The translations under genes were made by a program, and so were the position numbers. From Escherichia phage vB_EcoM_ECO1230-10, in the sequence record NC_027995.1: a stretch of DNA of 41,666 nucleotides; one strand, given 5' to 3'. Under the pieces are notes generated by a model, which was not told the DNA's origin, did not search any database, and saw only the letters and a list, made by a program, of their open reading frames with translations. Shown in pieces: positions 891 through 16,390 of the stretch (positions are counted from its first letter, which is position 1; the number at the start of each line of letters is the position of its first letter).

Positions 891-916
891 AAAAACCCCG
901 CCGAAGCGGGGTTTTG
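891..916 (+). terminator. bidirectional intrinsic terminator
   Basis: aaaaa-ccccgc-cgaa-gcgggg-ttttgtg; perfect 6-bp GC stem flanked by A-run and T-run. Confidence 0.55.
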
Positions 917-3083: not shown

Positions 3084-3791
3084 TCATTGTTTACGATAAC
3101 CTTTGCCAGAAAGCCAAATTGCAATTTCTGTGGCAACACCAATGTCAAGGCTGGTTTTTGTAGTGGCCGCAAAGTTAGCCAGTTCGTAAAGTATTTCATC
3201 ACGCGCTTCACATTCATTCATGTCGGACTCTAACTGATCATCGTTCAATATCGCAGTATCGCGAGGCACAACAATTCCAGCGGTTTGGGATTCGTTAGGC
3301 TGTACGATGCGGTAAGCAATGATGTCACCGTTACTGCCAGTATGTGACCATGAAAAATCTCCTGCTCTGTCATTATTGAAATGAAGCGGACTAGGTTTCA
3401 GGTATTTGACTTCAACAATTGCGTCACTATCCACCGGGCATTCACCGCCAGCCCATTCAATCCAGCCGTCAGCGTCGGCAGCACTGGCGGTTTTGCCTGC
3501 CCCTGCGTCAGACGTGTAGTGTCCAGTTGAAACCTGGTACGGTCGCAGTTCTTTACTGGCTGCCAGCGCGGCTTCGTACTGTTCGCGGGTGATTTTTACG
3601 CCAGCCTCGCCACATTTTCTGTGATCAATAGCCAGTTCATTAAGGAAGATTCCTGTTCTTACATTTCCTCGACCGTAAAACATAAGTTCACGGTCGTAAT
3701 CTTGCCCGATGCGGGTTACTTTTTTTGGCCACCCGCCATTTTCAGGAAGATACGCAACCAGCAAAGCAAGTAAAGTTTTTGATGTGTTCAT
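3084..3791 (-). CDS. hypothetical protein (235 aa), accessory gene downstream of tail gene D
   Basis: ORF track; no recognisable motif; relatively AT-rich compared with tail genes. Confidence 0.6.
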   Translation of the reverse strand: MNTSKTLLALLVAYLPENGGWPKKVTRIGQDYDRELMFYGRGNVRTGIFLNELAIDHRKCGEAGVKITREQYEAALAASKELRPYQVSTGHYTSDAGAGKTASAADADGWIEWAGGECPVDSDAIVEVKYLKPSPLHFNNDRAGDFSWSHTGSNGDIIAYRIVQPNESQTAGIVVPRDTAILNDDQLESDMNECEARDEILYELANFAATTKTSLDIGVATEIAIWLSGKGYRKQ

Positions 3792-5650: not shown

Positions 5651-7992
5651 GGTGCCGTCACTCCGTCATTCATCATGCTGCGCTGGCGCACCTGGCGTCG
5701 GCGCTCCTGTTCGTCGGCAATACGTTTGGCCAGGTCGGCGTTGTTCTCACCAGGGCGCTGCGTCACCTGAATGGTGGTTGTGCTGCTGTCGGTGTACGTA
5801 CTGCCGCCACGGTTTGCCAGGGCAGGCGCTGGCAATGCGTTACCTGGCGTCATCGGTGATGCCAGTGTGTTACCTTCTGGTACGTCATCACCACCAAACG
5901 GATTGCGGAAAAAGTCTTTTGTTGACTCCCACGCGCTGCCAGCCATGTCAGAAACGCTGTTTTTGAAATCAATGGCTTTTTGCGTCAGTGCGCCAATGTT
6001 GTCAGAAACCCAAATGATCTTATCAATCAGGAACTGAATTGGCCCCAACACAAAATCAATGCCTGCGGCAAGCGCCTTGCCGAACTTCTGGCCAGCGTCA
6101 CCGGCCTTTTTCAGTTCTTCGCTGCTGTAGCTCACCGGTTCGGCCAGTTTTGTGAACCAATCCCACACCTTGCCAGCAACGTCAGCAACCCACTGGAACG
6201 CGGTTTTGACTGGCCCTAACTTATCCCACAGCGCCTGGAATTTCTCCGTCACTGGTTGCAACCCTTGCTGGATTCCCTGCAAAGTGCCGGTCATGAACGC
6301 TTTGACGCCAGCCCAATTGCGGTAAATCCACAGGCCGCCAAGCGCCAGTCCGGTAATCAGGGCACCAATGCCGGTGGAAATGAACGCCGCACCTATGGCG
6401 CGCACACCAGCGACAACGGCAGGGATTCCACGCGTTGCCATGCCCAACAGTCCACCGTTGGCCACGGTAGCTGCGGCACCAACCGCACGCGAGGAAACTG
6501 CGGTCAAGGCCATCTGTGCGCGGGCACCAGCCAGGGCGCCTACAATACGAAGCGCACCACCACGCAGGTACGTGAACGCGAAGCCAGCAGCAAACGTGGC
6601 AATGCGCATGGTAATCAGTGCGCCAGCCGTGGCTACAATGGCTTTGGTGACAACCGGGTGCGCTTGCGCCAGTTCTGTAACCTTGCCAATCCACGGACTA
6701 ATGGTTTTCAGGACGCTGTTGAATGCTGGAAGCAGCACGCTGCCAATAGTGATACCAAGTGCGGTGATCTGGTTTCGGAATATTACCAGTTCGTTTGCCG
6801 TTGTTGCGGCCCGTGCCTGGTATTCTTTTTCCATCGAACCGGCATATTTCATTTTGTTCGCTACAGCGTCAAAATTCTTTTCCAGTTCCTTGATGTTCGT
6901 CAGCAATGGCGCAATTGAACCAACAACCTCTTTGCCAAAAAGCTGCGTCAGAACCGCTGACTGTTCGTGTTTCCGCAGTTTTGCAACCTGCTTGAGAATG
7001 ACAAGCATGGTTTTTTTGGAGTCCAGTTGCATGGATTTTGCAACTGCTGTTGAGGAATAGCCAAGCCGTGCGAATGCTTCGCGCTGCGATTTTGTCGCAG
7101 CTTTACCCGCCGTCAGTGACAGCATCAGGTTTTTGATACCAGTGGCGGCAATCTCGTTTTGCACACCCATGCCGCGCAGTGTCGCACCAAGTGCGGCAAT
7201 CTCACCGGAAGCAGTACCGGCAACCTCGCCAAGTGGCCCGATGCGCTGCACGATCTCCATGATGTCTTTGGCTGATGCGGCAGTGTTATTGCCCAGGTAG
7301 TTGATTTTGTCAGCCAGGACGACAACCTGTTGCTGGTTCATCTTGAACGCAGAGCGCATCTCTGCCATCGCCTGGCCTGCCTGGTCAGCGGTGATGTCGA
7401 ACGCCACGCCCATCTTGATGGCTGATTCCGCAAACGTCATCAGTTCTTTGGCTGCAATGCCAGACTGACCACCCGCGGCAACGATCTTGCCAATGTCGTT
7501 GGCTGTCATCGGCAGAACTTTTGACATGTTGATAATGTCCTGCCCCATCTTTTTGAATCCGTCAGGTGTGTCGAAATCAACAACCTTTTTCACGTCAGCC
7601 ATCGTGGATTCAAAATCAATAGCGGCTTTGACCGGTGCGGCGATAGTGGCACCCAGGGCAATGGTGCCCATGATCCCATCTTTGTATTGTTCACGCTTCG
7701 CCAGGTTGCGTTCGCGGGCATCCTCCACGCGTTTCAGGCGTTCGGTGGCGGTGCGCAGTTTGTCAACCGCAGCAACGTTGGCGGCATATTTGGCGCGCAG
7801 TGAATCAACGTTTTTGCCCTGGCGGCCAAACGTCTGGATGGCGTTGGTTAGTGTGCGTTGTTCGCGTTCCAGCTTGGCCATTGCTGCGCCAACCTGTTCC
7901 ACAGATGATTTGACGGTGCCGAATGCGCCTTTAAGGCTGCTTGAAACTGCCCCGCCTATCGTGATCGTTGCATTGAGCTTCTTATTTGCCAT
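5647..7992 (-). CDS. tail tape measure protein
   Basis: 781 aa, Ala/Gly-rich with coiled-coil N-terminus; sits between E/E' chaperone and U. Confidence 0.85.
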   Translation of the reverse strand: MANKKLNATITIGGAVSSSLKGAFGTVKSSVEQVGAAMAKLEREQRTLTNAIQTFGRQGKNVDSLRAKYAANVAAVDKLRTATERLKRVEDARERNLAKREQYKDGIMGTIALGATIAAPVKAAIDFESTMADVKKVVDFDTPDGFKKMGQDIINMSKVLPMTANDIGKIVAAGGQSGIAAKELMTFAESAIKMGVAFDITADQAGQAMAEMRSAFKMNQQQVVVLADKINYLGNNTAASAKDIMEIVQRIGPLGEVAGTASGEIAALGATLRGMGVQNEIAATGIKNLMLSLTAGKAATKSQREAFARLGYSSTAVAKSMQLDSKKTMLVILKQVAKLRKHEQSAVLTQLFGKEVVGSIAPLLTNIKELEKNFDAVANKMKYAGSMEKEYQARAATTANELVIFRNQITALGITIGSVLLPAFNSVLKTISPWIGKVTELAQAHPVVTKAIVATAGALITMRIATFAAGFAFTYLRGGALRIVGALAGARAQMALTAVSSRAVGAAATVANGGLLGMATRGIPAVVAGVRAIGAAFISTGIGALITGLALGGLWIYRNWAGVKAFMTGTLQGIQQGLQPVTEKFQALWDKLGPVKTAFQWVADVAGKVWDWFTKLAEPVSYSSEELKKAGDAGQKFGKALAAGIDFVLGPIQFLIDKIIWVSDNIGALTQKAIDFKNSVSDMAGSAWESTKDFFRNPFGGDDVPEGNTLASPMTPGNALPAPALANRGGSTYTDSSTTTIQVTQRPGENNADLAKRIADEQERRRQVRQRSMMNDGVTAP

Positions 7993-7998
7993 TTATTT

Positions 7999-8408
7999 TT
8001 AAGCCTTCGGCAATCCTTCCAACCACCACACAAAGCGGGAAACCCGCAACCTTTGAATTTCCGATAACTGCCAGCCCGTATGACTTGCGAGCGCCAAAGC
8101 GCCCGCGCGTATGTATTCCGGGCTTAATCTAAAAAACTGATGTAGGCAGCCTGTAGGCGCTTATAGTCTTTCAGCGGCAGGCGGCGGATGTCATCAGGTG
8201 CCTGTTCACACAGGTTGGCAAACGTCTGGATTTCGCGCGCAGCATCGCTGCCGCCCATGTCGCTTGCAATCTCCTGGTCAGCCACGGTGGGTTCGCGCAT
8301 ACGCAGCACGGAAACGTCAACGCCCGCGATTTTCAGCGGTCGTGACAGGGTGATGTCACAGTGGCCGGTTTCGTTGTTGAATTTCAGGTAATCAGGTAAT
8401 TTCGCCAT
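7999..8408 (-). CDS. tail assembly chaperone E+E' (-1 frameshift product, about 136 aa)
   Basis: -1 frame is open from slippery site to TAA at 7999-8001, 8 nt before tape-measure ATG; extension RLSPEYIRAGALALASHTGWQLSEIQRLRVSRFVWWLEGLPKA. Confidence 0.55.
8124..8408 (-). CDS. tail assembly chaperone E (P2 gpE-like)
   Basis: 94-aa ORF directly upstream of tape measure; ends ...ISFLD with slippery site in last codons. Confidence 0.7.
   Translation of the reverse strand: MAKLPDYLKFNNETGHCDITLSRPLKIAGVDVSVLRMREPTVADQEIASDMGGSDAAREIQTFANLCEQAPDDIRRLPLKDYKRLQAAYISFLD
8130..8136 (-). promoter_or_regulatory. -1 programmed ribosomal frameshift slippery heptamer T_TTT_TTA
   Basis: plus-strand taaaaaa; in gene E frame reads AGT TTT TTA GAT TAA. 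Confidence 0.55.
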
Positions 8409-8468
8409 TTCTTATCGCCTTAAACAATGATTGTTGAAAATGGCCAGCCAAATGACTGGCCGTAAAAA

Positions 8469-8975
8469 TTACATCGCCAGCGCAGAACGGATGGCTGCCA
8501 GGGTGTCTACACCGTTGATGATGCGCACCATGTTTTCCACGTCGATTTCGTGGATGGTCTTTCCGTTATGCTGCTGTTTGAAATAGTTCAGGCTGACAGT
8601 GACGTTAAGGGAACTCAGTTCCCCAGGCGTCCAGGTGCCTGGCTCCATGCTGGTGATTTTGCCGCGCATGTTCATGACAACGGCTTTAACGCTGCCGTCA
8701 TAGGATTCCAGCGCACCGCGAAACGTCAGCGGAACGCTTGCACCTTCTGACAGGCCAAACAGCGCCAGCACGTCAGAATCATAAGCACGCAGCGCAAAGC
8801 TGGCTTCCAGCTTTTCCATGCCCAACGTCACATCAATGGGCGCGTCCATGCCGCCTGCGCGGAATTCTTCGGTTTGCAGGGTTAAGGTGGGCGGCGTGAC
8901 GCTCTCCACCTGGCCCGCGTAACCACGGCCATCAACAAATAAGTTGATGTTTTTCAAAACGTCACGTGCGGCCAT
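8469..8975 (-). CDS. major tail tube protein (P2 FII-like)
   Basis: 168 aa; NLFVDG...TEEFRAGG pattern; follows sheath gene with TAATG overlap. Confidence 0.8.
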   Translation of the reverse strand: MAARDVLKNINLFVDGRGYAGQVESVTPPTLTLQTEEFRAGGMDAPIDVTLGMEKLEASFALRAYDSDVLALFGLSEGASVPLTFRGALESYDGSVKAVVMNMRGKITSMEPGTWTPGELSSLNVTVSLNYFKQQHNGKTIHEIDVENMVRIINGVDTLAAIRSALAM

Positions 8976-10399
8976 TATTCGAATACCTCACTAATATAAT
9001 CGTTGGTCAATTGGCTGCGGAAGATAATGTGTTCAGCCGGATAAACAGGCGTGAAATCAAAATCAAAGTATACCTTACCATCCGCGATCTGGTCAGCAGT
9101 ATTTAAGTCAGGGTCAGCCCAACACGTGCCGCCAAGAATTGCGCCCAGGCTCACCAGGTTGCGCAGGTACGCGTTCACGCCTTCAATCACGTCATTGACG
9201 TATTGTTTGGTGATGCCACGGTCTACGGCCCACAGGTGTGCACGCAGCAGACTGTCATTGATGATGTCAGCCGTGCGAACCACGCACAGGAACGCCCATT
9301 TCTGATCGCTGGAACAGGTGCGGTTGCCCCACAGGCGGAAACCGTCCTGGCGAATGATGGTGGTGACTTCGTTTTCATTCAGCAGGTTTGCACGGCTGGA
9401 TGTGTCACCCAGGGTGAAATCAATGGTTCGGGCCGTGCCCTGGATGCCATAGATTTCCTGGTTTGATGGTGACCACCAGAAACCGCGCTCGTTGTCGATG
9501 CGGGCAATCAGACCAGCCACGCGCGGCGATGCCCAATCAGTAATCGTGGTTCCATCTTCGTCAAGCACCAGCACTTTTGGGTCAACCACATAAACGCGCT
9601 TGCTGCCAAAGTCTTTGCGGTAGGCGATAGCGTCAGCGTCGTTGGTGTTTGGACCATCGGCAATGATGACGGCACGCAGGCGGTTGGCGATGCCAAGCAG
9701 TTCAGAAACCACGGCGTTTGCCGCCACTCCAACGGATGCGGTTGCAGTTGCGCCGGTGCCGTTTCCGCCAGTGATGGCTACGGTTGGCGCTGTGGTGTAA
9801 CCCATACCGGAATTGGTGACGGTGATTTTGGTGATTACTCCACCAACCACAGTGGCTTGCGCTGTTGCGCCAGTGCCACCGCCACCTGTCAGGGAGATCG
9901 TAGGCGTTTCGGTGTAGCCGCTGCCGCCGTTGCCGATACTGATAGCCGTGACGCCATCCTGAACGCGGGTATGCGTGAAGCCAGGCACGCACAGAATGCG
10001 AGGCGAGTAGCCCACAACGGATTCAGCGCCAAGCAGTGCGTGAACGCCTTCATATTTGCCGGTTGATGCGTTAACGCCACCCATGATGTTGGCCAGTGTT
10101 GCTGCTTCGTCTTCGCCTTCTTCAACACGCACAACGATGACCACAGCGCCGATCTGGTCAAGGATGGCATCCAGTGCTTTTGGCAGTGTGCCTTCACCGG
10201 TGCCAAGCATGTCCAGTTTTGCCGCTTCGCGCTGGCTGCCAGCAATCAGGGTAGGGGTGTTAATCGGGAATGCGTCAGGGTCGGCATTCGGCGCTGTGCC
10301 TACAATGCCAATGACGCTGGATTTAACGGTTTGAATGACGCGTGAACCGGAATCAATTTCCAGCACCTCCACGCCATGTAAGAAATCAGTACCTGCCAT
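8975..10399 (-). CDS. tail sheath protein (P2 FI-like), start corrected to internal ATG
   Basis: [18 protein letters not shown] sheath N-terminus; ATG at 10399 preceded by AGGAAA; track ORF starts further upstream at a non-ATG codon. Confidence 0.85.
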
Positions 10400-10470
10400 T
10401 ATTCGGTTTCCTATTAACTGTGCACACAGTGAAAATTCGCAGTGTGATGGTCGCAGGAACCGTGCGTGGC

Positions 10471-10488
10471 TTCTTCTTGGGGTTTGTC
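10471..10488 (-). promoter_or_regulatory. late-junction motif copy 1 (GACAAACCCCAAGAAGAA), upstream of sheath
   Basis: exact 18-mer; 72 nt from sheath ATG; just downstream of Tfa terminator. Confidence 0.45.
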
Positions 10489-10490
10489 CG

Positions 10491-10514
10491 TAAAAAAGCC
10501 CGCGTGATGCGGGC
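10491..10514 (-). terminator. intrinsic terminator after tail-fibre assembly gene
   Basis: minus sense gcccgc-atcac-gcgggc followed by TTTTTTA. Confidence 0.6.
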
Positions 10515-10693
10515 AAAGGCGACAAATCAGTAACCGATGGCGAACCAGTCAACGGTTAGTGTTGTTGTTCCTGGTGCTGTCCCTTCATTCTGCACCCCGC
10601 CAAGAATGCTTGAAAATGTGGTTAGCGTACGCCCGCTGATGTTAGCATATTCAAGAACAATGTTTTTGTTAGTTATGCCTCTAAAGACTTCGC

Positions 10694-10999
10694 TCATACA
10701 TTGTTCGCCTCATTCGTTGCGCCAATCAGCGCGGCCACATCCGGGTTTGCGTTCAGGAACGAACGCAGTTTGTCTACCGGGTCAGTTTGCTTGTTGTCGT
10801 TGGCCACCTGTACGGTGACCAGTTGCCATTCCGCGCCGTTCCAGCGCGGCCATTGGCCATCGATGAAATCAGGTGGTGCCACCGTGACACAGCGCGCAGG
10901 AATCAGGAACACGCCAGGTTCCAGCGGCGATTCATCGGCATCAGTCTGGCCAACATACATGCCAGCCAGGTCATATTGATAAACTGGTTTAGTGTTCAT
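10694..10999 (-). CDS. tail fibre assembly chaperone (Tfa-like, short)
   Basis: APPDFIDGQWPRWNGAEWQLV resembles conserved N-terminal Tfa region; immediately downstream of fibre gene. Confidence 0.6.
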   Translation of the reverse strand: MNTKPVYQYDLAGMYVGQTDADESPLEPGVFLIPARCVTVAPPDFIDGQWPRWNGAEWQLVTVQVANDNKQTDPVDKLRSFLNANPDVAALIGATNEANNV

Positions 11000-11008
11000 A
11001 ATGCCGCC

Positions 11009-12364
11009 TTAAAATTTGATGCAAGCCAACATGGCAACGTTGCGCGGGCGCGCTTCGCTTCCGCCGCTTGATTTTGTCACCAGGTCTGCTTGCTGCGCGC
11101 CACCTGCGCCGGTATCTGCGCCAACCGCATAAACCCCGCCAGTGGCGTCAATTTGCGTTGCTCTCCACGCCTGCAAATTATGGGTATGTTCCTTGTTCTG
11201 GTCGCCCTGCCAGCTACCGAGAGCGCGTCCAGTGTCTATGTCTCTCGCGTCATCCCAGGCGCGAATAAACTCTCCTCGCAGGTCTGGAACGTTGAATGTA
11301 GTAGCACCGTCACCCTCCCCAAACGTTGTGCCGATGGCAGAAAACAGGTCTGCGTAAGCTGTTCGACTGACCGCTGCTCCGTTGGCTTTCAGCCATCCAG
11401 TTGGTGCACTGTTGCGAGCAAACATCGCCACCATTCCTGCTGGTGCCTGCTGGCGTGCCAGGTTGTAGGTTTCGGCCTTGCTGTACACATCCAGATTGTT
11501 GCGCGACGTTACTTTGTCTGCAACATCAGCCAGGTTTTTGCTGCGTTCCAGTGGTGCAGGCGCACTTCCTGCTGGCTCGTTGTTCACGCACTCTATTTTT
11601 GTTCCTTCCGGGTATGATTTGCCAAGAATGACTCGATTTGCCAACGTTTCATCTGGCTGCCAGTCATCAACGTCAGGTCCACGCGTAAGGCGAACACCTT
11701 CGATGTACACCGCAAGGCCGTATGTAATGGTTTTCGTCAGGTCAACGTTGGTCTGACCGGCTGCCAGTATTTGCTTTTCTGCTACCGTATCAACAACAAC
11801 GTTTGCCTGCGTCGGGTCAATCCAGTGCACATCGCCGTCAGAGTTTGAAACCTTAGCCAGCACCTGCCCGGTTGTGCCACCAGGGATAAGCGTTCCAGCA
11901 GTCACGTTGTTGCTGATCCACTGCTGAGTGACAACCACAACGTTTGGGTCAATCTGCAGCGCGATGGTGTTTGCGTTCGAAACCATGAAATCAAGACGCA
12001 CCACCGTGTCAGCGTATGCGCCTTCGGTGTCCTGTGGTTTATAGGTGGCAGGCAGGTTGCCAACCACGAACAGTGAACCGTCAGAATCAAACACGCCAAC
12101 TTCGCGCAGAGTAAAGCCGCCAACGCTTGCCGGAATAACCAATTCAGCTGTGAACCGCAGCGGGTCGTCAGGTGCCTGGTAAACGCGGTTAATTACCGCG
12201 CGGTATCTCTCGCGCACAAGTTGGATTTGATTTCCAGACGGGGTTACCGCGTTACCGCCACCGTCACCAACCGCCATGTGGGTAAGGTTTATTGCTTTGC
12301 CTGTAGATTCAGCCCTGGCAAGCTCTTGTAAACCGTAGTTCGTGTGAATGGTCATAAAAGACAT
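11009..12364 (-). CDS. tail fibre protein (P2 gpH-like N-terminus)
   Basis: MAVGDGGG...AELVIPASVGGF...YKP motifs as in P2 H; ATG at 12364 chosen over the track's TTG at 12400. Confidence 0.8.
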   Translation of the reverse strand: MSFMTIHTNYGLQELARAESTGKAINLTHMAVGDGGGNAVTPSGNQIQLVRERYRAVINRVYQAPDDPLRFTAELVIPASVGGFTLREVGVFDSDGSLFVVGNLPATYKPQDTEGAYADTVVRLDFMVSNANTIALQIDPNVVVVTQQWISNNVTAGTLIPGGTTGQVLAKVSNSDGDVHWIDPTQANVVVDTVAEKQILAAGQTNVDLTKTITYGLAVYIEGVRLTRGPDVDDWQPDETLANRVILGKSYPEGTKIECVNNEPAGSAPAPLERSKNLADVADKVTSRNNLDVYSKAETYNLARQQAPAGMVAMFARNSAPTGWLKANGAAVSRTAYADLFSAIGTTFGEGDGATTFNVPDLRGEFIRAWDDARDIDTGRALGSWQGDQNKEHTHNLQAWRATQIDATGGVYAVGADTGAGGAQQADLVTKSSGGSEARPRNVAMLACIKF

Positions 12365-12398: not shown

Positions 12399-12420
12399 AA
12401 CCCCGCGTTTGCGGGGTTTG
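12399..12420 (-). terminator. terminator-like hairpin between tailspike and fibre genes
   Basis: minus sense ccccgc-aaac-gcgggg followed by TTGTATAAATTTATT. Confidence 0.4.
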
Positions 12421-12423
12421 TAA

Positions 12424-14901
12424 TTAATAATAAACAGGTATTTCACCGGCAGAATAGTTACCTGCTGCACCTTCGCGGCTACACAGTGCGAACCTCTTGT
12501 CAACAATATCTCTTGAATCTGTAGAAACTATATCATAACAAATATTGTTCGCAGAACGATGAACAAAAGCATTGACGATCGGTTTTGTTGGTGATGAACC
12601 TTTTGCGCGTGTTCCGTCGATAAGGCAATAAGTGAACGAAATAAAACCAGCAACAGGATTATTCCCTGTGTCCCAATCTATGAAAGACTGGTCAAAATAA
12701 ACGCCGCCCTGCATGTAGGTTGTTCCGCCAGAGTACCCTACAAAACGTCGCATGATTCCTTTCTCTACGCGGATGTAACTCCTGTTCATGCCTGATGTAA
12801 TGTTCATGAAAGTCATGTCCATGTTACTTTCAAGGCCATACAGACAGGTTGCATACTCCGCCTGATACCCGACATAAGCAGTAACTTTGCAACCAGTTGA
12901 TTTTGCTGGCGTCAGTTTCACTAATGTCATAGGCCTGGTGGTGGCGTCATGATAGGACAGCGCCCATTCAAACCGTGCAGTTTTGCCGTTGAATGTGCTT
13001 CCGGTGAAGTCAATGACATCCGGCATAACAAAATCACGCAGTGGTGAATTCTGTGTTTTGAAATTATTTTTAAACGAAACAATATTAAGCGTAACGGAAT
13101 CTGGCCAGTAAATATTCGTTGCAATAATAACGTTCTTCGGCAGGTTCAATGCTCGTGGCTGTAGTGGGTTACCAGAAGAAATTACGTTGTCACAACGGCA
13201 GGTGAACAGGTCAACAATTCCAGTTTTATCAGGCGCGACGCGAACAGAACCACCGCGAACAATAAAATCGCCCTTATGTTCGCCATAATCCGAACGAATA
13301 CCAAAAGGCCCGGTATGTGAGTTTATAATTTGTGTTGCTTCATCAAACGCACCAGTACCAAATGATAAGCCGTTTGGGATTCGGCAGTTATCAATCAGTA
13401 TCTTTGAAGAACCATAATGAAGGTTGAAACTGTCCATTGTGCAGTCTCTGACCACAGTGTCACGGCAATAGTTGCCATCCACTGACCGCCAGCCTTTTCC
13501 AACTATGGAACTATTGAAGGTATGTTTGAGCGTGTATTCCATCAGTACCGAATAGCGAGAATTTGTGTCTGATTGCGTGATACCAGAAGAAGAAATGGTC
13601 CAGACAACGCCATATGTAGAACTGCTGCCAAGAATATTTGAATCCATTGCGGTCATGCCCATTTCGTTGGCGTATACAACTTCTACGTCAACCAATGAAC
13701 GTTGGATGTCGAAAGTAAACCGGTTAAATTGGCCGGTGATGCGCGGAAGGACGATTTTGTTACGCTTGTTTGGCAGTTTGTATAAGGTGCAGGTAACAGC
13801 ATCGTTATACGTATTTTTCAGCGTATAGGCTAACTCTCCGGCTTTCGCCATGAAATTGACTTCGCCTTTATAGCGCGGGGTGCTCACACCGTTTAGCAGT
13901 CGATACAAATCAACCTCTGTTGGGCTGATGATCTTAACTAGTGAATTCTCCCAACCTTCTAAAACGTCAGATGTCGGCAAAACAGACGTTAACTCAACAA
14001 GTGGGTAGTTTGTCAGGGTTATGGTTTTTTTATACTCTGAAATGTCCCGCTCATCTGCATAGATCACCTTTCCGCCAGAAAGATTGAATGTCAGGTTGCT
14101 GAAATCAAAGTTTCCGTATGCGGTAACATCTGTGTCAATGTTAAAAGTAAGTGCGACGCTTGAATACAGCGTTACGTTTCTCCCGCGATACGCGGAAAAA
14201 ATAGAGTTAAGCATCGCTGAATCTTTCGTGCCGCTTACTTTAGATATATCAACCAGTGACAGGCGTTCTTCCAGGCCTCCAACGATAGAAACACCGCTAT
14301 TTGAACCTAACTGGCTGCGCAGTGTTTGCGATTTCAAGTCGTTCCATGCACCTGTTGAAATTCCGCCAGTACCTTCCGGTGTCGATTCCTCCGGTACGCT
14401 CTTTGGAAGATTTCCACCCCATGAGTAGCAAGCACCACCAGCAATATGCCAGACAGCATCGTTAACTGACTGCGCTGTAGCACCTTCTTCAAAGCTGCCA
14501 TCCACAAGGTTAAAACCGGCATCAGCCAGCGTTCTGCGCCATTGCTCGCGTGCGTTAGCGTTTATGTTTGCTACATTAATTTCAATGCTTTGCGCTGCTG
14601 ATTCAGCACGTTCCGCAGCGCCATTTGCGTCAGATAGTTGCTGACCGATGTCAACGCACTGGAACGTCACGCGCGTGCCGGTATCTGTCCCAACACTAAC
14701 CTGCATGTCGTAAATGCCATCTGGTGCGCGGAACTGGATTTTTCCATCTGCGTCAGCCGTGAACGGGTTAGCTAGCGCATTGCCGCCCACCGTTTTAAGG
14801 CCGCTTGCCATCGTGGTTGTTTCTGTCAGGTAAATTGTGACAGTAGCGCCTGGAATAAGCGAACCGTTTCGATCCTGCGCGAAGTATGTTTTTAATTCCA
14901 C
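12424..14901 (-). CDS. second tail fibre / tailspike protein with putative beta-helix (depolymerase-like) C-terminal region
   Basis: 825 aa; GTG start coupled to gpI stop; Asn/Ser/Thr/Gly-rich repetitive body; body visibly more AT-rich than flanking tail genes. Confidence 0.6.
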   Translation of the reverse strand: MELKTYFAQDRNGSLIPGATVTIYLTETTTMASGLKTVGGNALANPFTADADGKIQFRAPDGIYDMQVSVGTDTGTRVTFQCVDIGQQLSDANGAAERAESAAQSIEINVANINANAREQWRRTLADAGFNLVDGSFEEGATAQSVNDAVWHIAGGACYSWGGNLPKSVPEESTPEGTGGISTGAWNDLKSQTLRSQLGSNSGVSIVGGLEERLSLVDISKVSGTKDSAMLNSIFSAYRGRNVTLYSSVALTFNIDTDVTAYGNFDFSNLTFNLSGGKVIYADERDISEYKKTITLTNYPLVELTSVLPTSDVLEGWENSLVKIISPTEVDLYRLLNGVSTPRYKGEVNFMAKAGELAYTLKNTYNDAVTCTLYKLPNKRNKIVLPRITGQFNRFTFDIQRSLVDVEVVYANEMGMTAMDSNILGSSSTYGVVWTISSSGITQSDTNSRYSVLMEYTLKHTFNSSIVGKGWRSVDGNYCRDTVVRDCTMDSFNLHYGSSKILIDNCRIPNGLSFGTGAFDEATQIINSHTGPFGIRSDYGEHKGDFIVRGGSVRVAPDKTGIVDLFTCRCDNVISSGNPLQPRALNLPKNVIIATNIYWPDSVTLNIVSFKNNFKTQNSPLRDFVMPDVIDFTGSTFNGKTARFEWALSYHDATTRPMTLVKLTPAKSTGCKVTAYVGYQAEYATCLYGLESNMDMTFMNITSGMNRSYIRVEKGIMRRFVGYSGGTTYMQGGVYFDQSFIDWDTGNNPVAGFISFTYCLIDGTRAKGSSPTKPIVNAFVHRSANNICYDIVSTDSRDIVDKRFALCSREGAAGNYSAGEIPVYY

Positions 14902-15495
14902 TTAATCACCTATTGAAATATTAGCCTGCGGCATAACGTAATCATTCAAAGCCCCAACGCTCCGAACGTAGTTTGTGATACTAATTTCACTGCCAACACC
15001 CGCAATAATTCCGGTTCTGACTACTGCGGTTGATTTTACGGTCAGGCTGGTTTTAACCATGTGTGAACGCAAATTCTTGTTTGTGTCAATAATCTGCTTA
15101 ATTCTGTTCAGGTCTGCTTGCGTGGCCGATGTCTGGTCAATCGTTATGTAAACCTCAAAAGTATATGGCGCGCCGGTGGTTGCCATTCGGAACCACTCAA
15201 CAATGCGAATATCAAGGCCAAGCGCCGCAAGTTGGCGTTTCACTGCACCAATAGTTCCCTTAATGCGCTGTGATACTATGGATTGCTTGATGGTGTCGCG
15301 CTTCTGCTGTTCGGTCCAGTTGGTGTCCCAATCATCAACGCTGAACGCCCACGCCAGCCAGGGGAGGACGCTAACCGGGCAGGTGTCAGGGTTCCAGACT
15401 TCACGAACCACAACTGGCACGTCACTAATCCTGGCCACCGTCCCAGCCAGTGCGCGTTCCTGCGCTGTTGCGTTCGATGGCAGCAAATCAGACAT
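14902..15495 (-). CDS. baseplate/tail protein I (P2 gpI-like)
   Basis: EVWNPDTCPVSVLPWLAWAFSVDDWD matches gpI signature; ATG at 15495 (MSDLLP) preferred over the track's GTG at 15504. Confidence 0.8.
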   Translation of the reverse strand: MSDLLPSNATAQERALAGTVARISDVPVVVREVWNPDTCPVSVLPWLAWAFSVDDWDTNWTEQQKRDTIKQSIVSQRIKGTIGAVKRQLAALGLDIRIVEWFRMATTGAPYTFEVYITIDQTSATQADLNRIKQIIDTNKNLRSHMVKTSLTVKSTAVVRTGIIAGVGSEISITNYVRSVGALNDYVMPQANISIGD

Positions 15496-16390
15496 CTGTT
15501 TCACCTGCTGCGTTCACGGCAATGCTGGTGCAGTAGCTCGCCTGGCCGTCTCCAATCACCAGCGATTCAGTCGGTGAAATCAGGTTCACATTTTGAACGC
15601 CTGGCTGATGCAACGCGTGATACAAGCCAGACAAAGTGACATCGTACCCGATGCGGCGCTGCGTTTCGGCGTATGCGGTCACCGCATCAATGGCGGATTG
15701 CAGAACAACCGTTGCGTCAGGCCCAGGGTACAGGGTTAGTTCTGCTTCAATGTTGTAAGGCACAATGATTGCCGACTGCACTTGCACCTGGTCAGTCATT
15801 GGGCGCACGGTTTCTGCGTTCAGCGTGGTGTTAACATTTTCAAGCAGACTTTCTGGTGCGGTTCCATCGCCAGTGCGTGATAAAACGTAAACCACCACAA
15901 CCCCTGGCGTTGGGCTGACAGGCTGCACGTCCTTCACGTCAGGGTCAGCGCCAAGCGCGTGGAACACGTAACTGCCTTCGGAACCTGCTGTGGTGTATGC
16001 TTCCGGTGATAACTGGATGCGCGCGCGGAAATCATCGTCAGATTCCATGACGGCGGCCACTGGCGGCACTGCGTCAGGGTCAGCCGGTGTGATGGTCTGC
16101 CGTTCCACGTTGACGTTTGCGCCAAGCTGGTCCAGGTCGGAACCGGTGGCGTAGGCCAGCATGATGGCTTTGGCGGCCTCATTGACGCGATGACGCATCA
16201 GCAGTTCACGATAGGCGCAAACCTCCAGAACCTTATAAGCCGGATCAGATTCCACCAGTGCGGTGAATGTGGGGTCACGCTCCTGTAAGTCGGCAATCAT
16301 GGCCGCCAGGATAGTTTCGAAGTCCAGCGATTCAACAACGTTTGGCGCTGGTAATTGAGATAAGTTTACAACTGTGAAGGCACCCGCCAT
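15488..16390 (-). CDS. baseplate assembly protein J
   Basis: NLSQLPAPNVVESLDFETILA N-terminus and overall gpJ-like sequence; TAAATG junction with W. Confidence 0.85.
   Translation of the reverse strand: MAGAFTVVNLSQLPAPNVVESLDFETILAAMIADLQERDPTFTALVESDPAYKVLEVCAYRELLMRHRVNEAAKAIMLAYATGSDLDQLGANVNVERQTITPADPDAVPPVAAVMESDDDFRARIQLSPEAYTTAGSEGSYVFHALGADPDVKDVQPVSPTPGVVVVYVLSRTGDGTAPESLLENVNTTLNAETVRPMTDQVQVQSAIIVPYNIEAELTLYPGPDATVVLQSAIDAVTAYAETQRRIGYDVTLSGLYHALHQPGVQNVNLISPTESLVIGDGQASYCTSIAVNAAGETDV

What the first reader, a model, noticed from the sequence alone, without database searches (positions are those of the whole stretch)
12424..14901. Extra AT-rich tailspike-like gene inserted between baseplate gene I and the gpH-like fibre gene
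P2-type order is I then H. Here an 825-aa gene lies between them, with a GTG start coupled to the gpI stop. Its first 150 codons have GC content like the neighbours, while the remaining body is clearly more AT-rich and Asn/Ser/Thr/Gly-rich in a way consistent with a beta-helix enzymatic receptor-binding domain. A terminator-like hairpin follows it. This pattern suggests a horizontally acquired host-range module, possibly a capsule or O-antigen depolymerase.
Basis: partly seen in the sequence, partly recalled or inferred. Interest (0 to 1): 0.58.

Follow-up and report, generated by a model that had tools for sequence, protein, structure and literature searches.

The report
Modular tailspike, probable polysaccharide lyase
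The gene is the already-annotated tailspike of coliphage vB_EcoM_ECO1230-10: it fills a receptor-binding slot that all its relatives share, and its exchangeable beta-helix body probably cuts an acidic surface sugar polymer, which is an ordinary arrangement for phages.

Summary
The ORF is real: 12424-14901, minus strand, 825 aa, with a GTG start directly after the gpI stop. The window is the complete genome of Escherichia phage vB_EcoM_ECO1230-10, where this gene is already annotated "tail spike protein".

It is extra only relative to P2. The related Jilinvirus phages examined (ECOO78, Arya) carry a spike in the same slot, in the order gpI, spike, tail-collar fibre. ECOO78's spike is the characterised depolymerase Dpo42.

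Residues 1 to about 200 are a shared anchor, 64-69% identical to those relatives. Residues from about 205 to 825 are an exchangeable body. That body also occurs behind P22-type head-binding domains and other unrelated N-termini.

AlphaFold2 models the body as a right-handed beta-helix. Its nearest solved structures are tailspike lyases: AP22 gp54, LKA1 gp49, K64-ORF41 and K1 lyase. The K64-ORF41 catalytic residues Tyr528, His574 and Arg628 align with the conserved Y450, H495 and R536. I therefore predict a beta-eliminating polysaccharide lyase. The substrate is unknown.

The composition claim is only partly right. The GC step lies near codon 216 and comes from amino-acid composition. At synonymous sites the whole gene and distal gpI are AT-shifted. 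The hairpin after the gene is conserved in relatives but has no U-tract.

This is an ordinary finding of low interest.

The parts
12424..14901 (-). Tailspike gene, 825 aa, GTG start. It is identical to the GenBank 'tail spike protein' of Escherichia phage vB_EcoM_ECO1230-10.
   Evidence: ORF list. 100% match to P0001 on a 41,666-bp contig. BFVD entry D5LGZ1.
14581..14901 (-). N-terminal anchor, residues 1 to about 107. It is shared with other Jilinvirus spikes and is presumed to dock on the baseplate.
   Evidence: 60-90% identity per 20-aa window to the ECOO78 and Arya spikes. About 80 metagenomic proteins share residues 1 to about 200. pLDDT is below 50 here because the alignment is shallow.
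14278..14580 (-). Long helix (residues 97-127) followed by the Tail_spike_N (PF18668) domain, about residues 108-208.
   Evidence: Pfam hit at residues 136-188, E = 7e-15. PDB sequence hits to 8x8m, CBA120 TSP1/3/4 and G7C gp63.1 cover only residues 112-211. pLDDT is 85-91.
12427..14277 (-). Exchangeable receptor-binding body, about residues 209-825: a right-handed parallel beta-helix plus a C-terminal domain, predicted to be a polysaccharide lyase.
13552..13554 (-). Codon for Tyr450, the predicted catalytic Tyr (aligns with K64-ORF41 Tyr528).
   Evidence: hhalign and the profile alignment to 8x8m. The residue is invariant in the family and in remote representatives.
13417..13419 (-). Codon for His495, the predicted catalytic His (aligns with K64-ORF41 His574).
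   Evidence: Conserved.
13294..13296 (-). Codon for Arg536, in the motif R-x-D-[YF]-G (aligns with K64-ORF41 Arg628).
   Evidence: Conserved.
12401..12416 (-). GC hairpin CCCCGC-aaac-GCGGGG between the spike and fibre genes. It is a conserved backbone element, terminator-like but without a U-tract.
   Evidence: Sequence. Fold energy -16.8 kcal/mol, z = -3.35. Same position in ECOO78 (CCCCAC..GTGGGG, a compensatory change) and in Arya. Not called by the terminator scan.
14902..15504 (-). gpI-like baseplate protein. Its stop abuts the spike's GTG start, and its distal two-thirds share the low-GC3 composition.
   Evidence: Pfam Tail_P2_I, E = 8e-50. GC3 falls 0.68, 0.50, 0.44 along the gene. Identity to ECOO78 falls from 80% to 55-62% along the gene.
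11009..12364 (-). Second receptor-binding protein: a tail-collar fibre (gpH-like N-terminus plus Collar domain), 451 aa from the ATG at 12364.
   Evidence: Pfam Phage_tail_fib and Collar. 68.5% identical to the ECOO78 fibre and 70.9% to the Arya fibre.
10694..10999 (-). Small 101-aa protein after the fibre, tail-fibre or assembly-like.
   Evidence: PHROG 1766, 1807 and 105. 79-82% identical to the ECOO78 and Arya proteins.

Best explanation
The gene encodes the enzymatic tailspike of phage vB_EcoM_ECO1230-10, a relative of the genus Jilinvirus. It is the first of the phage's two receptor-binding proteins.

Residues 1 to about 200 form an anchor: a lineage-specific N-terminus, a long helix and a Tail_spike_N domain. 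The anchor fixes the presumably trimeric spike to the P2-like baseplate. It is common to the genus.

Residues from about 205 to 825 form a right-handed beta-helix body. This body has been exchanged by recombination with other enterobacterial phages and determines host range.

The body most likely binds a uronic-acid-containing surface polysaccharide of the host, either O-antigen or capsule. It most likely cleaves that polymer by beta-elimination, using Tyr450, His495 and Arg536. Cleavage would let the phage reach the outer membrane, where the downstream tail-collar fibre acts.

What is shown:
- the gene, its synteny with relatives and the modular boundaries;
- the predicted fold;
- alignment and conservation of the three catalytic residues.

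What is inferred: trimer formation, attachment to the virion, lyase chemistry and the substrate.
For: Identity and context:
- P0001 is 100% identical, is named 'tail spike protein', and sits on a 41,666-bp contig. The Dpo42 paper lists the same genome size for this phage.
- The slot is conserved in ECOO78 (gp42, the depolymerase Dpo42) and in Arya (gp15).
- The Dpo42 paper reports that the protein degraded capsular polysaccharide.
- The Jilinvirus HeidiAbel has two receptor-binding proteins and depends on O-antigen.

Modularity:
- About 80 proteins share only residues 1 to about 200. They then carry bodies with other Pfam domains, including pectate lyase, sialidase, GDSL and NosD.
- About 38 proteins share only the body, starting at residues 191-218. 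Their N-termini include P22-type head-binding domains, a Calx-beta domain and other unrelated types.

Fold:
- pLDDT is mostly above 90 across residues 220-800.
- The Foldseek top hit is K64-ORF41 (8x8m), E = 1.7e-14, TM 0.53/0.56.

Catalysis:
- hhalign to K64-ORF41 gives probability 99.4% over 608 columns.
- It aligns Y450, H495 and R536 to Tyr528, His574 and Arg628. A review lists these as the confirmed catalytic residues of that beta-elimination lyase.
- These residues are 100% conserved in 28 body homologues.
- They are also conserved in 26-33%-identical representatives, except for the weakest hit.
Against: - No enzymatic, virion or host data exist for this protein.
- The body has no Pfam, NCBIfam or significant PDB sequence match.
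- The stretch of the HMM alignment that covers the catalytic residues is weak on its own (independent E-value 1.3). Much of the hhalign score comes from the shared Tail_spike_N domain.
- Beta-helix tailspikes include many hydrolases, and conserved acidic residues (D475, E521, D538, E541) are also present.
- The substrate could not be inferred. Two P22-like prophage spikes that are 96.7% identical to each other carry this body, yet they sit in strains whose wzx/wzy genes are annotated O54 and O174.
Confidence: 0.75

Rival explanations
1. The body is a glycoside hydrolase, for example an endoglycosidase acting on a neutral O-antigen. It would use conserved Asp/Glu residues, as in the P22, Sf6, HK620 and KP32gp38 tailspikes.
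For: The beta-helix fold is shared with many hydrolases, including GH28, GH87 and GH110 enzymes and the HK620 and P22 tailspikes. Conserved acidic residues D475, E521, D538 and E541 are present. Jilinviruses studied so far depend on O-antigen or capsule in general, with no chemistry defined.
Confidence: 0.18
2. This is a recent insertion of a foreign gene into this particular phage, between gpI and the fibre gene.
For: P2 itself has no gene between I and H. The gene is AT-shifted relative to its neighbours.
Against: The relatives examined have a spike gene in this slot, with a 64-69% identical N-terminal part of about 200 aa, the same GTG-type start and the same downstream hairpin. The spikes of ECOO78 and Arya show the same GC pattern. 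No near-identical donor DNA exists in the phage or E. coli collections; the best match is 68% nucleotide identity.
Confidence: 0.04
3. The spike only binds its receptor and has no catalytic activity.
For: No activity data exist. Some Jilinviruses use a non-enzymatic fibre as one of their receptor-binding proteins (HeidiAbel Gp15).
Against: A large beta-helix with strictly conserved polar residues at the positions of a known active site is typical of active depolymerases.
Confidence: 0.05

Closest known systems
Dpo42 (gp42) of Escherichia phage vB_EcoM_ECOO78, genus Jilinvirus
   Same: It occupies the same genomic slot, in the order gpI, spike, tail-collar fibre. It has the same GTG start and MELKTYFAQD N-terminus. 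It is 64% identical over residues 1-205 and has the same downstream hairpin. It is an experimentally shown capsule depolymerase.
   Different: The bodies are unrelated in sequence after about residue 200-223, so the specificity, and possibly the chemistry, differ.
K64-ORF41 tailspike of Klebsiella phage SH-Kp 152410 (PDB 8X8M), together with the K1 lyase NTUH-K2044-K1-1 ORF34 and AP22 gp54
   Different: Identity in the structural alignments is only about 12%. The N-terminal adaptor is T7 gp17-like rather than Jilinvirus-type. The host and substrate differ (Klebsiella K64 capsule). No activity has been shown for the window protein.
LKA1 gp49 and phi297 gp61 (Pseudomonas phage tailspikes)
   Different: There is no detectable sequence similarity, and I did not compare catalytic residues.
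P22-family tailspikes (P22, Sf6, HK620) as the model of module exchange
   Same: Homologues of this body are fused to the P22 head-binding domain (PF09008) in E. coli prophages. This illustrates the same exchange of a body between different anchors.
   Different: The P22 and HK620 bodies are hydrolases and are much weaker structural matches (Foldseek E = 5e-3 to 7e-3).

Membership tests
Phage tailspike depolymerase (N-terminal anchor plus right-handed parallel beta-helix) | Right-handed parallel beta-helix body | tested here: met
Phage tailspike depolymerase (N-terminal anchor plus right-handed parallel beta-helix) | Recognisable tailspike N-terminal module and a position within the tail/baseplate gene cluster | tested here: met
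   PF18668 Tail_spike_N, E = 7e-15. The flanking genes are Tail_P2_I and a tail-collar fibre.
Phage tailspike depolymerase (N-terminal anchor plus right-handed parallel beta-helix) | Homotrimer present in the virion | not testable with these tools
   Only a monomer was predicted. The homologue in Proteus phage PM16 is annotated 'virion protein', but that is not evidence for this protein.
Phage tailspike depolymerase (N-terminal anchor plus right-handed parallel beta-helix) | Degrades host surface polysaccharide | not testable with these tools
   This needs a halo or spot assay and product analysis.
Tyr/His/Arg beta-elimination tailspike lyases (K64-ORF41, K1 lyase, AP22 gp54 group) | Structural similarity to solved members | tested here: met
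Tyr/His/Arg beta-elimination tailspike lyases (K64-ORF41, K1 lyase, AP22 gp54 group) | Catalytic Tyr, His and Arg present at the aligned positions | tested here: met
   Y450, H495 and R536 align to Tyr528, His574 and Arg628. They are conserved in the family and in remote representatives. I could not check whether they cluster in space.
Tyr/His/Arg beta-elimination tailspike lyases (K64-ORF41, K1 lyase, AP22 gp54 group) | Uronic-acid-containing substrate and an unsaturated product | not testable with these tools
   The substrate is unknown. The attempt to infer it from lysogen serogroups was inconclusive.
Jilinvirus first receptor-binding protein (orthologue of Dpo42) | Gene order gpI, spike, tail-collar fibre, with a homologous N-terminal anchor | tested here: met
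   64% identity to ECOO78 and 69% to Arya over residues 1 to about 205.
Jilinvirus first receptor-binding protein (orthologue of Dpo42) | Body homologous to Dpo42 | tested here: not met
   The tblastn match ends at residue 223. Identity is 10-30% per window after residue 180. It is a positional counterpart of Dpo42, not an orthologue of the Dpo42 body.
Pfam pectate-lyase / Beta_helix sequence families (PF12708, PF13229) | Significant match to the profile HMM | tested here: not met
   Pfam finds only Tail_spike_N. NCBIfam finds nothing.
Rho-independent terminator | GC-rich stem-loop followed directly by a U-tract | tested here: not met
   The stem is strong. The tail is UUGUAUAA, and the scan did not call it. 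The relatives also lack a U-run.

The most novel reading that the evidence does not exclude
The body would define an uncharacterised, narrow family of Tyr/His/Arg polysaccharide lyases. Only 25 representatives at the 50%-identity level were found among 1.84 billion proteins. The module moves between several kinds of phage attachment system: Jilinvirus, an E217-like myovirus, P22-like prophages, T7-like podophages and Escherichia phage Paul. Its target may not be serogroup-specific O-antigen, because near-identical copies sit in strains annotated O54 and O174. It might instead recognise a shared acidic glycan or a motif common to both.
Probability: 0.3. Interest if true: 0.4.

Novelty: new member of a known kind. 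Interest (0 to 1): 0.22.

Why it matters
The practical value is modest. ECO1230-10 was isolated as a candidate therapeutic phage for bovine metritis (this point is from memory). Its host range is probably set by this spike.

Knowing that the body is a probable lyase with defined candidate catalytic residues gives two things:
- a testable depolymerase reagent;
- clean boundaries, at about residue 205 and at the conserved hairpin, for swapping receptor-binding modules in Jilinvirus phages.

It adds nothing conceptually new. Modular tailspikes with conserved anchors and exchangeable beta-helix depolymerase bodies are well established.

Tried and rejected
- Pfam, NCBIfam and PDB sequence searches gave nothing for the body. 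Only structure prediction and profile-profile comparison were informative.
- The GC3 change-point analysis did not place a break at the domain boundary. The best split was codon 746, driven by one low-GC3 bin. I therefore rejected the idea that only the body is compositionally foreign.
- The terminator scan did not call the hairpin, so I do not label it a terminator.
- I tried to infer the substrate from lysogens.
  - Only 3 of 5,426 complete E. coli genomes, representing two strains, carry a DNA-detectable homologue of the body.
  - I located their O-antigen clusters. PGAP annotates the wzx/wzy genes as O54 in strain 'numer 3' and O174 in strain JX21CE33.
  - Their spikes are 96.7% identical to each other and only about 64% identical to the window protein.
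  - No substrate follows from this.
- The O54 and O174 repeat-unit structures could not be retrieved from the held papers.
  - My recollection that O54 contains 4-linked GalA is unverified.
  - The O54 cluster does have ugd next to an NAD-dependent epimerase, which is only consistent with a uronic acid.
- Rfam and tRNA scans of the whole window found nothing.
- The model's coordinates are not exposed, so I could not measure distances between Y450, H495 and R536.
Full report
**What is there**

The ORF list shows an 825-aa ORF at 12424-14901 on the minus strand. Its GTG (14901-14899) directly follows the TAA stop of the upstream gene (14904-14902). An AGGTGA motif lies 4 nt before the GTG. The upstream protein is a P2 gpI-type baseplate protein (Pfam Tail_P2_I, E = 8e-50), preceded by Baseplate_J. 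The downstream protein carries Phage_tail_fib and Collar domains, and the tail sheath gene follows further downstream.

**Identity of the window**

The protein is 100% identical to "tail spike protein [Escherichia phage vB_EcoM_ECO1230-10]", on a contig of 41,666 bp, which is the window's length. The Dpo42 paper lists that phage (GU903191) with the same genome size. BFVD holds the same protein as D5LGZ1. PHROG scans of the larger ORFs show a complete phage: terminase, portal, a fused protease and capsid protein, a P2-like tail, a lysis cassette and replication genes. The closest phages in the collection are Arya, ECOO78, ep3, HeidiAbel and Alux-21. The two records I opened, ECOO78 and Arya, are classified in genus Jilinvirus, subfamily Iiscvirinae, and the BASEL preprint places HeidiAbel there too.

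**Is it an insertion?**

It is extra only relative to P2.
- In ECOO78 and Arya the order is also gpI, then a spike of about 750-815 aa, then the tail-collar fibre, then a 101-aa protein.
- The ECOO78 spike is Dpo42. Its cloning primer begins GTGGAACTGAAAACAT, the same GTG-Glu-Leu-Lys-Thr start as here. The paper reports that the protein degraded capsular polysaccharide.
- The BASEL paper describes the Jilinvirus HeidiAbel as having two receptor-binding proteins and depending on O-antigen.
- Protein identity to ECOO78 runs V 94%, W 97%, J 81%, I 69%, spike residues 1-205 64%, spike body none, small protein 79%, and fibre 68.5%.

The slot therefore belongs to the lineage. Its content is the most divergent part of the tail module.

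**Modular boundaries**

BLASTP boundaries against the database hits fall into two groups.
- About 80 proteins match only residues 1 to about 175-240, most ending around 198-210. They continue into unrelated bodies that carry Pfam pectate-lyase, BNR-sialidase, GDSL-esterase, NosD/Beta_helix, GDPD or SASA domains.
- About 38 proteins match only from residues 191-218 to the end, or from about 87-136 when they also have a Tail_spike_N domain. Their N-termini include the P22 head-binding domain PF09008 in E. coli prophages, a Calx-beta domain, and an MTVSTEVDH-type N-terminus in E. coli and Proteus prophages. The body also occurs in the tailspike of Vectrevirus P433.1, the "tail fiber" of phage Paul and the "virion protein" of Proteus phage PM16.

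Identity to the ECOO78 and Arya spikes drops from 60-90% to 10-35% per 20-aa window after about residue 180-200. One full-length homologue, P0003 (69% identical), lies in a different myovirus baseplate context.

**Composition**

- The gene has GC 0.457 against 0.534 for the window, and GC3 0.437 against 0.53-0.69 for other structural genes.
- The best single GC change point is codon 216 (0.518 against 0.436, log-likelihood ratio 6.5). This coincides with the module boundary rather than with codon 150.
- The step comes from codon positions 1 and 2. GC1 falls from 0.58 to 0.46 (p = 0.003) and GC2 from 0.51 to 0.43 (p = 0.035).
- GC3 is 0.449 in residues 1-205 and 0.434 in residues 206-825 (p = 0.75). 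Both are far below the neighbours' 0.593 (p = 8e-5 and 5e-12).
- The N-terminal part is simply rich in Ala and Gly. Asn+Ser+Thr+Gly is 33% in the body, 36% in the N-terminal part and 29% in neighbours.
- The low-GC3 tract begins inside gpI, where GC3 runs 0.68, 0.50 and 0.44 along the gene. Nucleotide similarity to ECOO78, ep3, HeidiAbel and PT1 stops at about the same place, near window position 15,299.
- The ECOO78 and Arya spikes show the same pattern.

The AT shift is real. It marks the whole exchangeable host-range region of these phages, not a body that was newly acquired in this one.

**The hairpin**

CCCCGC-aaac-GCGGGG (12401-12416) folds at -16.8 kcal/mol, z = -3.35. It is followed by UUGUAUAA, and the terminator scan did not call it. 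A hairpin sits at the same place in Arya (CCCCGC-tacg-GCGGGG) and in ECOO78 (CCCCAC-ttcg-GTGGGG, a compensatory change), behind unrelated spike bodies. It is therefore part of the backbone. It marks the right-hand edge of the exchangeable cassette. Its role, whether partial terminator or RNA-stabilising element, is not established.

**Fold and likely chemistry**

- Sequence libraries recognise only the Tail_spike_N region.
- An AlphaFold2 model built on 33 homologues has pLDDT mostly above 90 for residues 220-800. Its strand pattern is that of a beta-helix.
- The Foldseek top hit is the Klebsiella K64 capsule tailspike K64-ORF41 (8x8m; E = 1.7e-14, TM 0.53/0.56), followed by the K1 lyase.
- A review lists K64-ORF41 as a beta-elimination lyase with intrachain catalytic residues Tyr528, His574 and Arg628.
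- I translated K64-ORF41 from its genome and confirmed those residues.
- hhalign of the family alignment against K64-ORF41 gives probability 99.4% over 608 columns. It aligns Y450 to Tyr528, H495 to His574 and R536 to Arg628, with a shared R-x-D-[YF]-G motif.
- The phmmer and hmmsearch alignments place Y450 and H495 the same way, although that stretch is weak on its own.
- Y450, H495, R536, W471 and D538 are invariant in 28 body homologues. They are retained in 26-33%-identical representatives, except for the weakest hit.
- The family is small: 25 representatives at 50% identity among 1.84 billion proteins.

I therefore predict a polysaccharide lyase acting on a uronic-acid-containing glycan. 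A hydrolase remains a real alternative.

**Substrate**

- Only 3 of 5,426 complete E. coli genomes, representing two strains, carry a DNA-detectable homologue of the body. All three copies are P22-like prophage tailspikes.
- Strain 'numer 3' has wzx/wzy genes annotated O54, together with rfbBDAC and ugd next to an NAD-dependent epimerase.
- Strain JX21CE33 has wzx/wzy genes annotated O174.
- The two spikes are 96.7% identical to each other and about 64% identical to the window protein, with the three catalytic residues conserved.
- Nearly the same spike in two serogroups means the substrate cannot be read from these lysogens.
- I could not retrieve the O54 or O174 repeat-unit structures.

**Verdict**

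Three points need correcting:
- The gene fills a receptor-binding slot conserved in its relatives and is already annotated as a tail spike.
- The internal composition step is an effect of amino-acid composition.
- The hairpin is a conserved backbone element.

The only addition is a specific, testable assignment of the body to the Tyr/His/Arg tailspike lyases. This is a new member of a known kind and of low interest.

Noticed in passing
window 14902-15504 (gpI), especially about 14900-15300: The low-GC3 tract starts inside gpI: GC3 is 0.68 for codons 1-68, 0.50 for codons 69-130 and 0.44 for codons 131-200. Megablast similarity to ECOO78, ep3, HeidiAbel and PT1 stops at about 15,299, but for Alux-21 it runs on to about 14,698, inside the spike gene. 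The recombination boundaries therefore differ between relatives, and distal gpI may co-vary with the spike anchor.
   Followed up: partly
window 12401-12416; L001 about 6252-6267; L002 about 6452-6467: A GC hairpin directly after the spike gene is conserved in three related phages behind unrelated spike bodies. One base pair shows a compensatory change (G-C to A-T). None of the three has a U-tract.
   Followed up: partly
window 896-911: A second hairpin of the same type, CCCCGC-cgaa-GCGGGG. Two matches to the pattern were found against 0.54 expected by chance; 10 of 100 shuffles reached two matches.
   Followed up: no
L005 (Logan SRR28201382 contig), gene at 6001-8451: A 69%-identical full-length homologue, with the same MELKTYFAQD anchor and the same body, lies behind a different baseplate set (Pam3_gp18, E217_GP41 and Sheath_initiator families). 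The anchor is therefore not restricted to P2-type gpI baseplates.
   Followed up: no
L006 11323-13572 (E. coli 'numer 3', annotated O54) and L011 5297-7546 (E. coli JX21CE33, annotated O174): P22-like prophage tailspikes that are 96.7% identical to each other sit in strains of two different O serogroups and at two different integration sites (next to ybhB-bioA, and next to a tRNA-Arg with intS).
   Followed up: partly
window 3084-3791 (-): A 235-aa ORF with unusually low GC (0.473; GC3 0.40). It matches PHROG 26870, of unknown function, and lies between the gpD-like tail protein gene and a ParB-like gene.
   Followed up: no
window 8975-10552 (-), sheath gene: The mechanical ORF starts at a TTG and adds about 50 residues. 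The likely start is the ATG near 10399 (MAGTDFLHG). Residues of about 195-280 of the listed ORF form Gly/Thr-rich tandem segments (GGSGYT..., GMGYT...) that match large virion structural proteins in PHROGs. This looks like an inserted surface domain in the sheath.
   Followed up: no
whole window: There are no tRNA genes and no Rfam families at gathering threshold. None of the roughly 26 larger ORFs that I scanned matched an integrase.
   Followed up: partly
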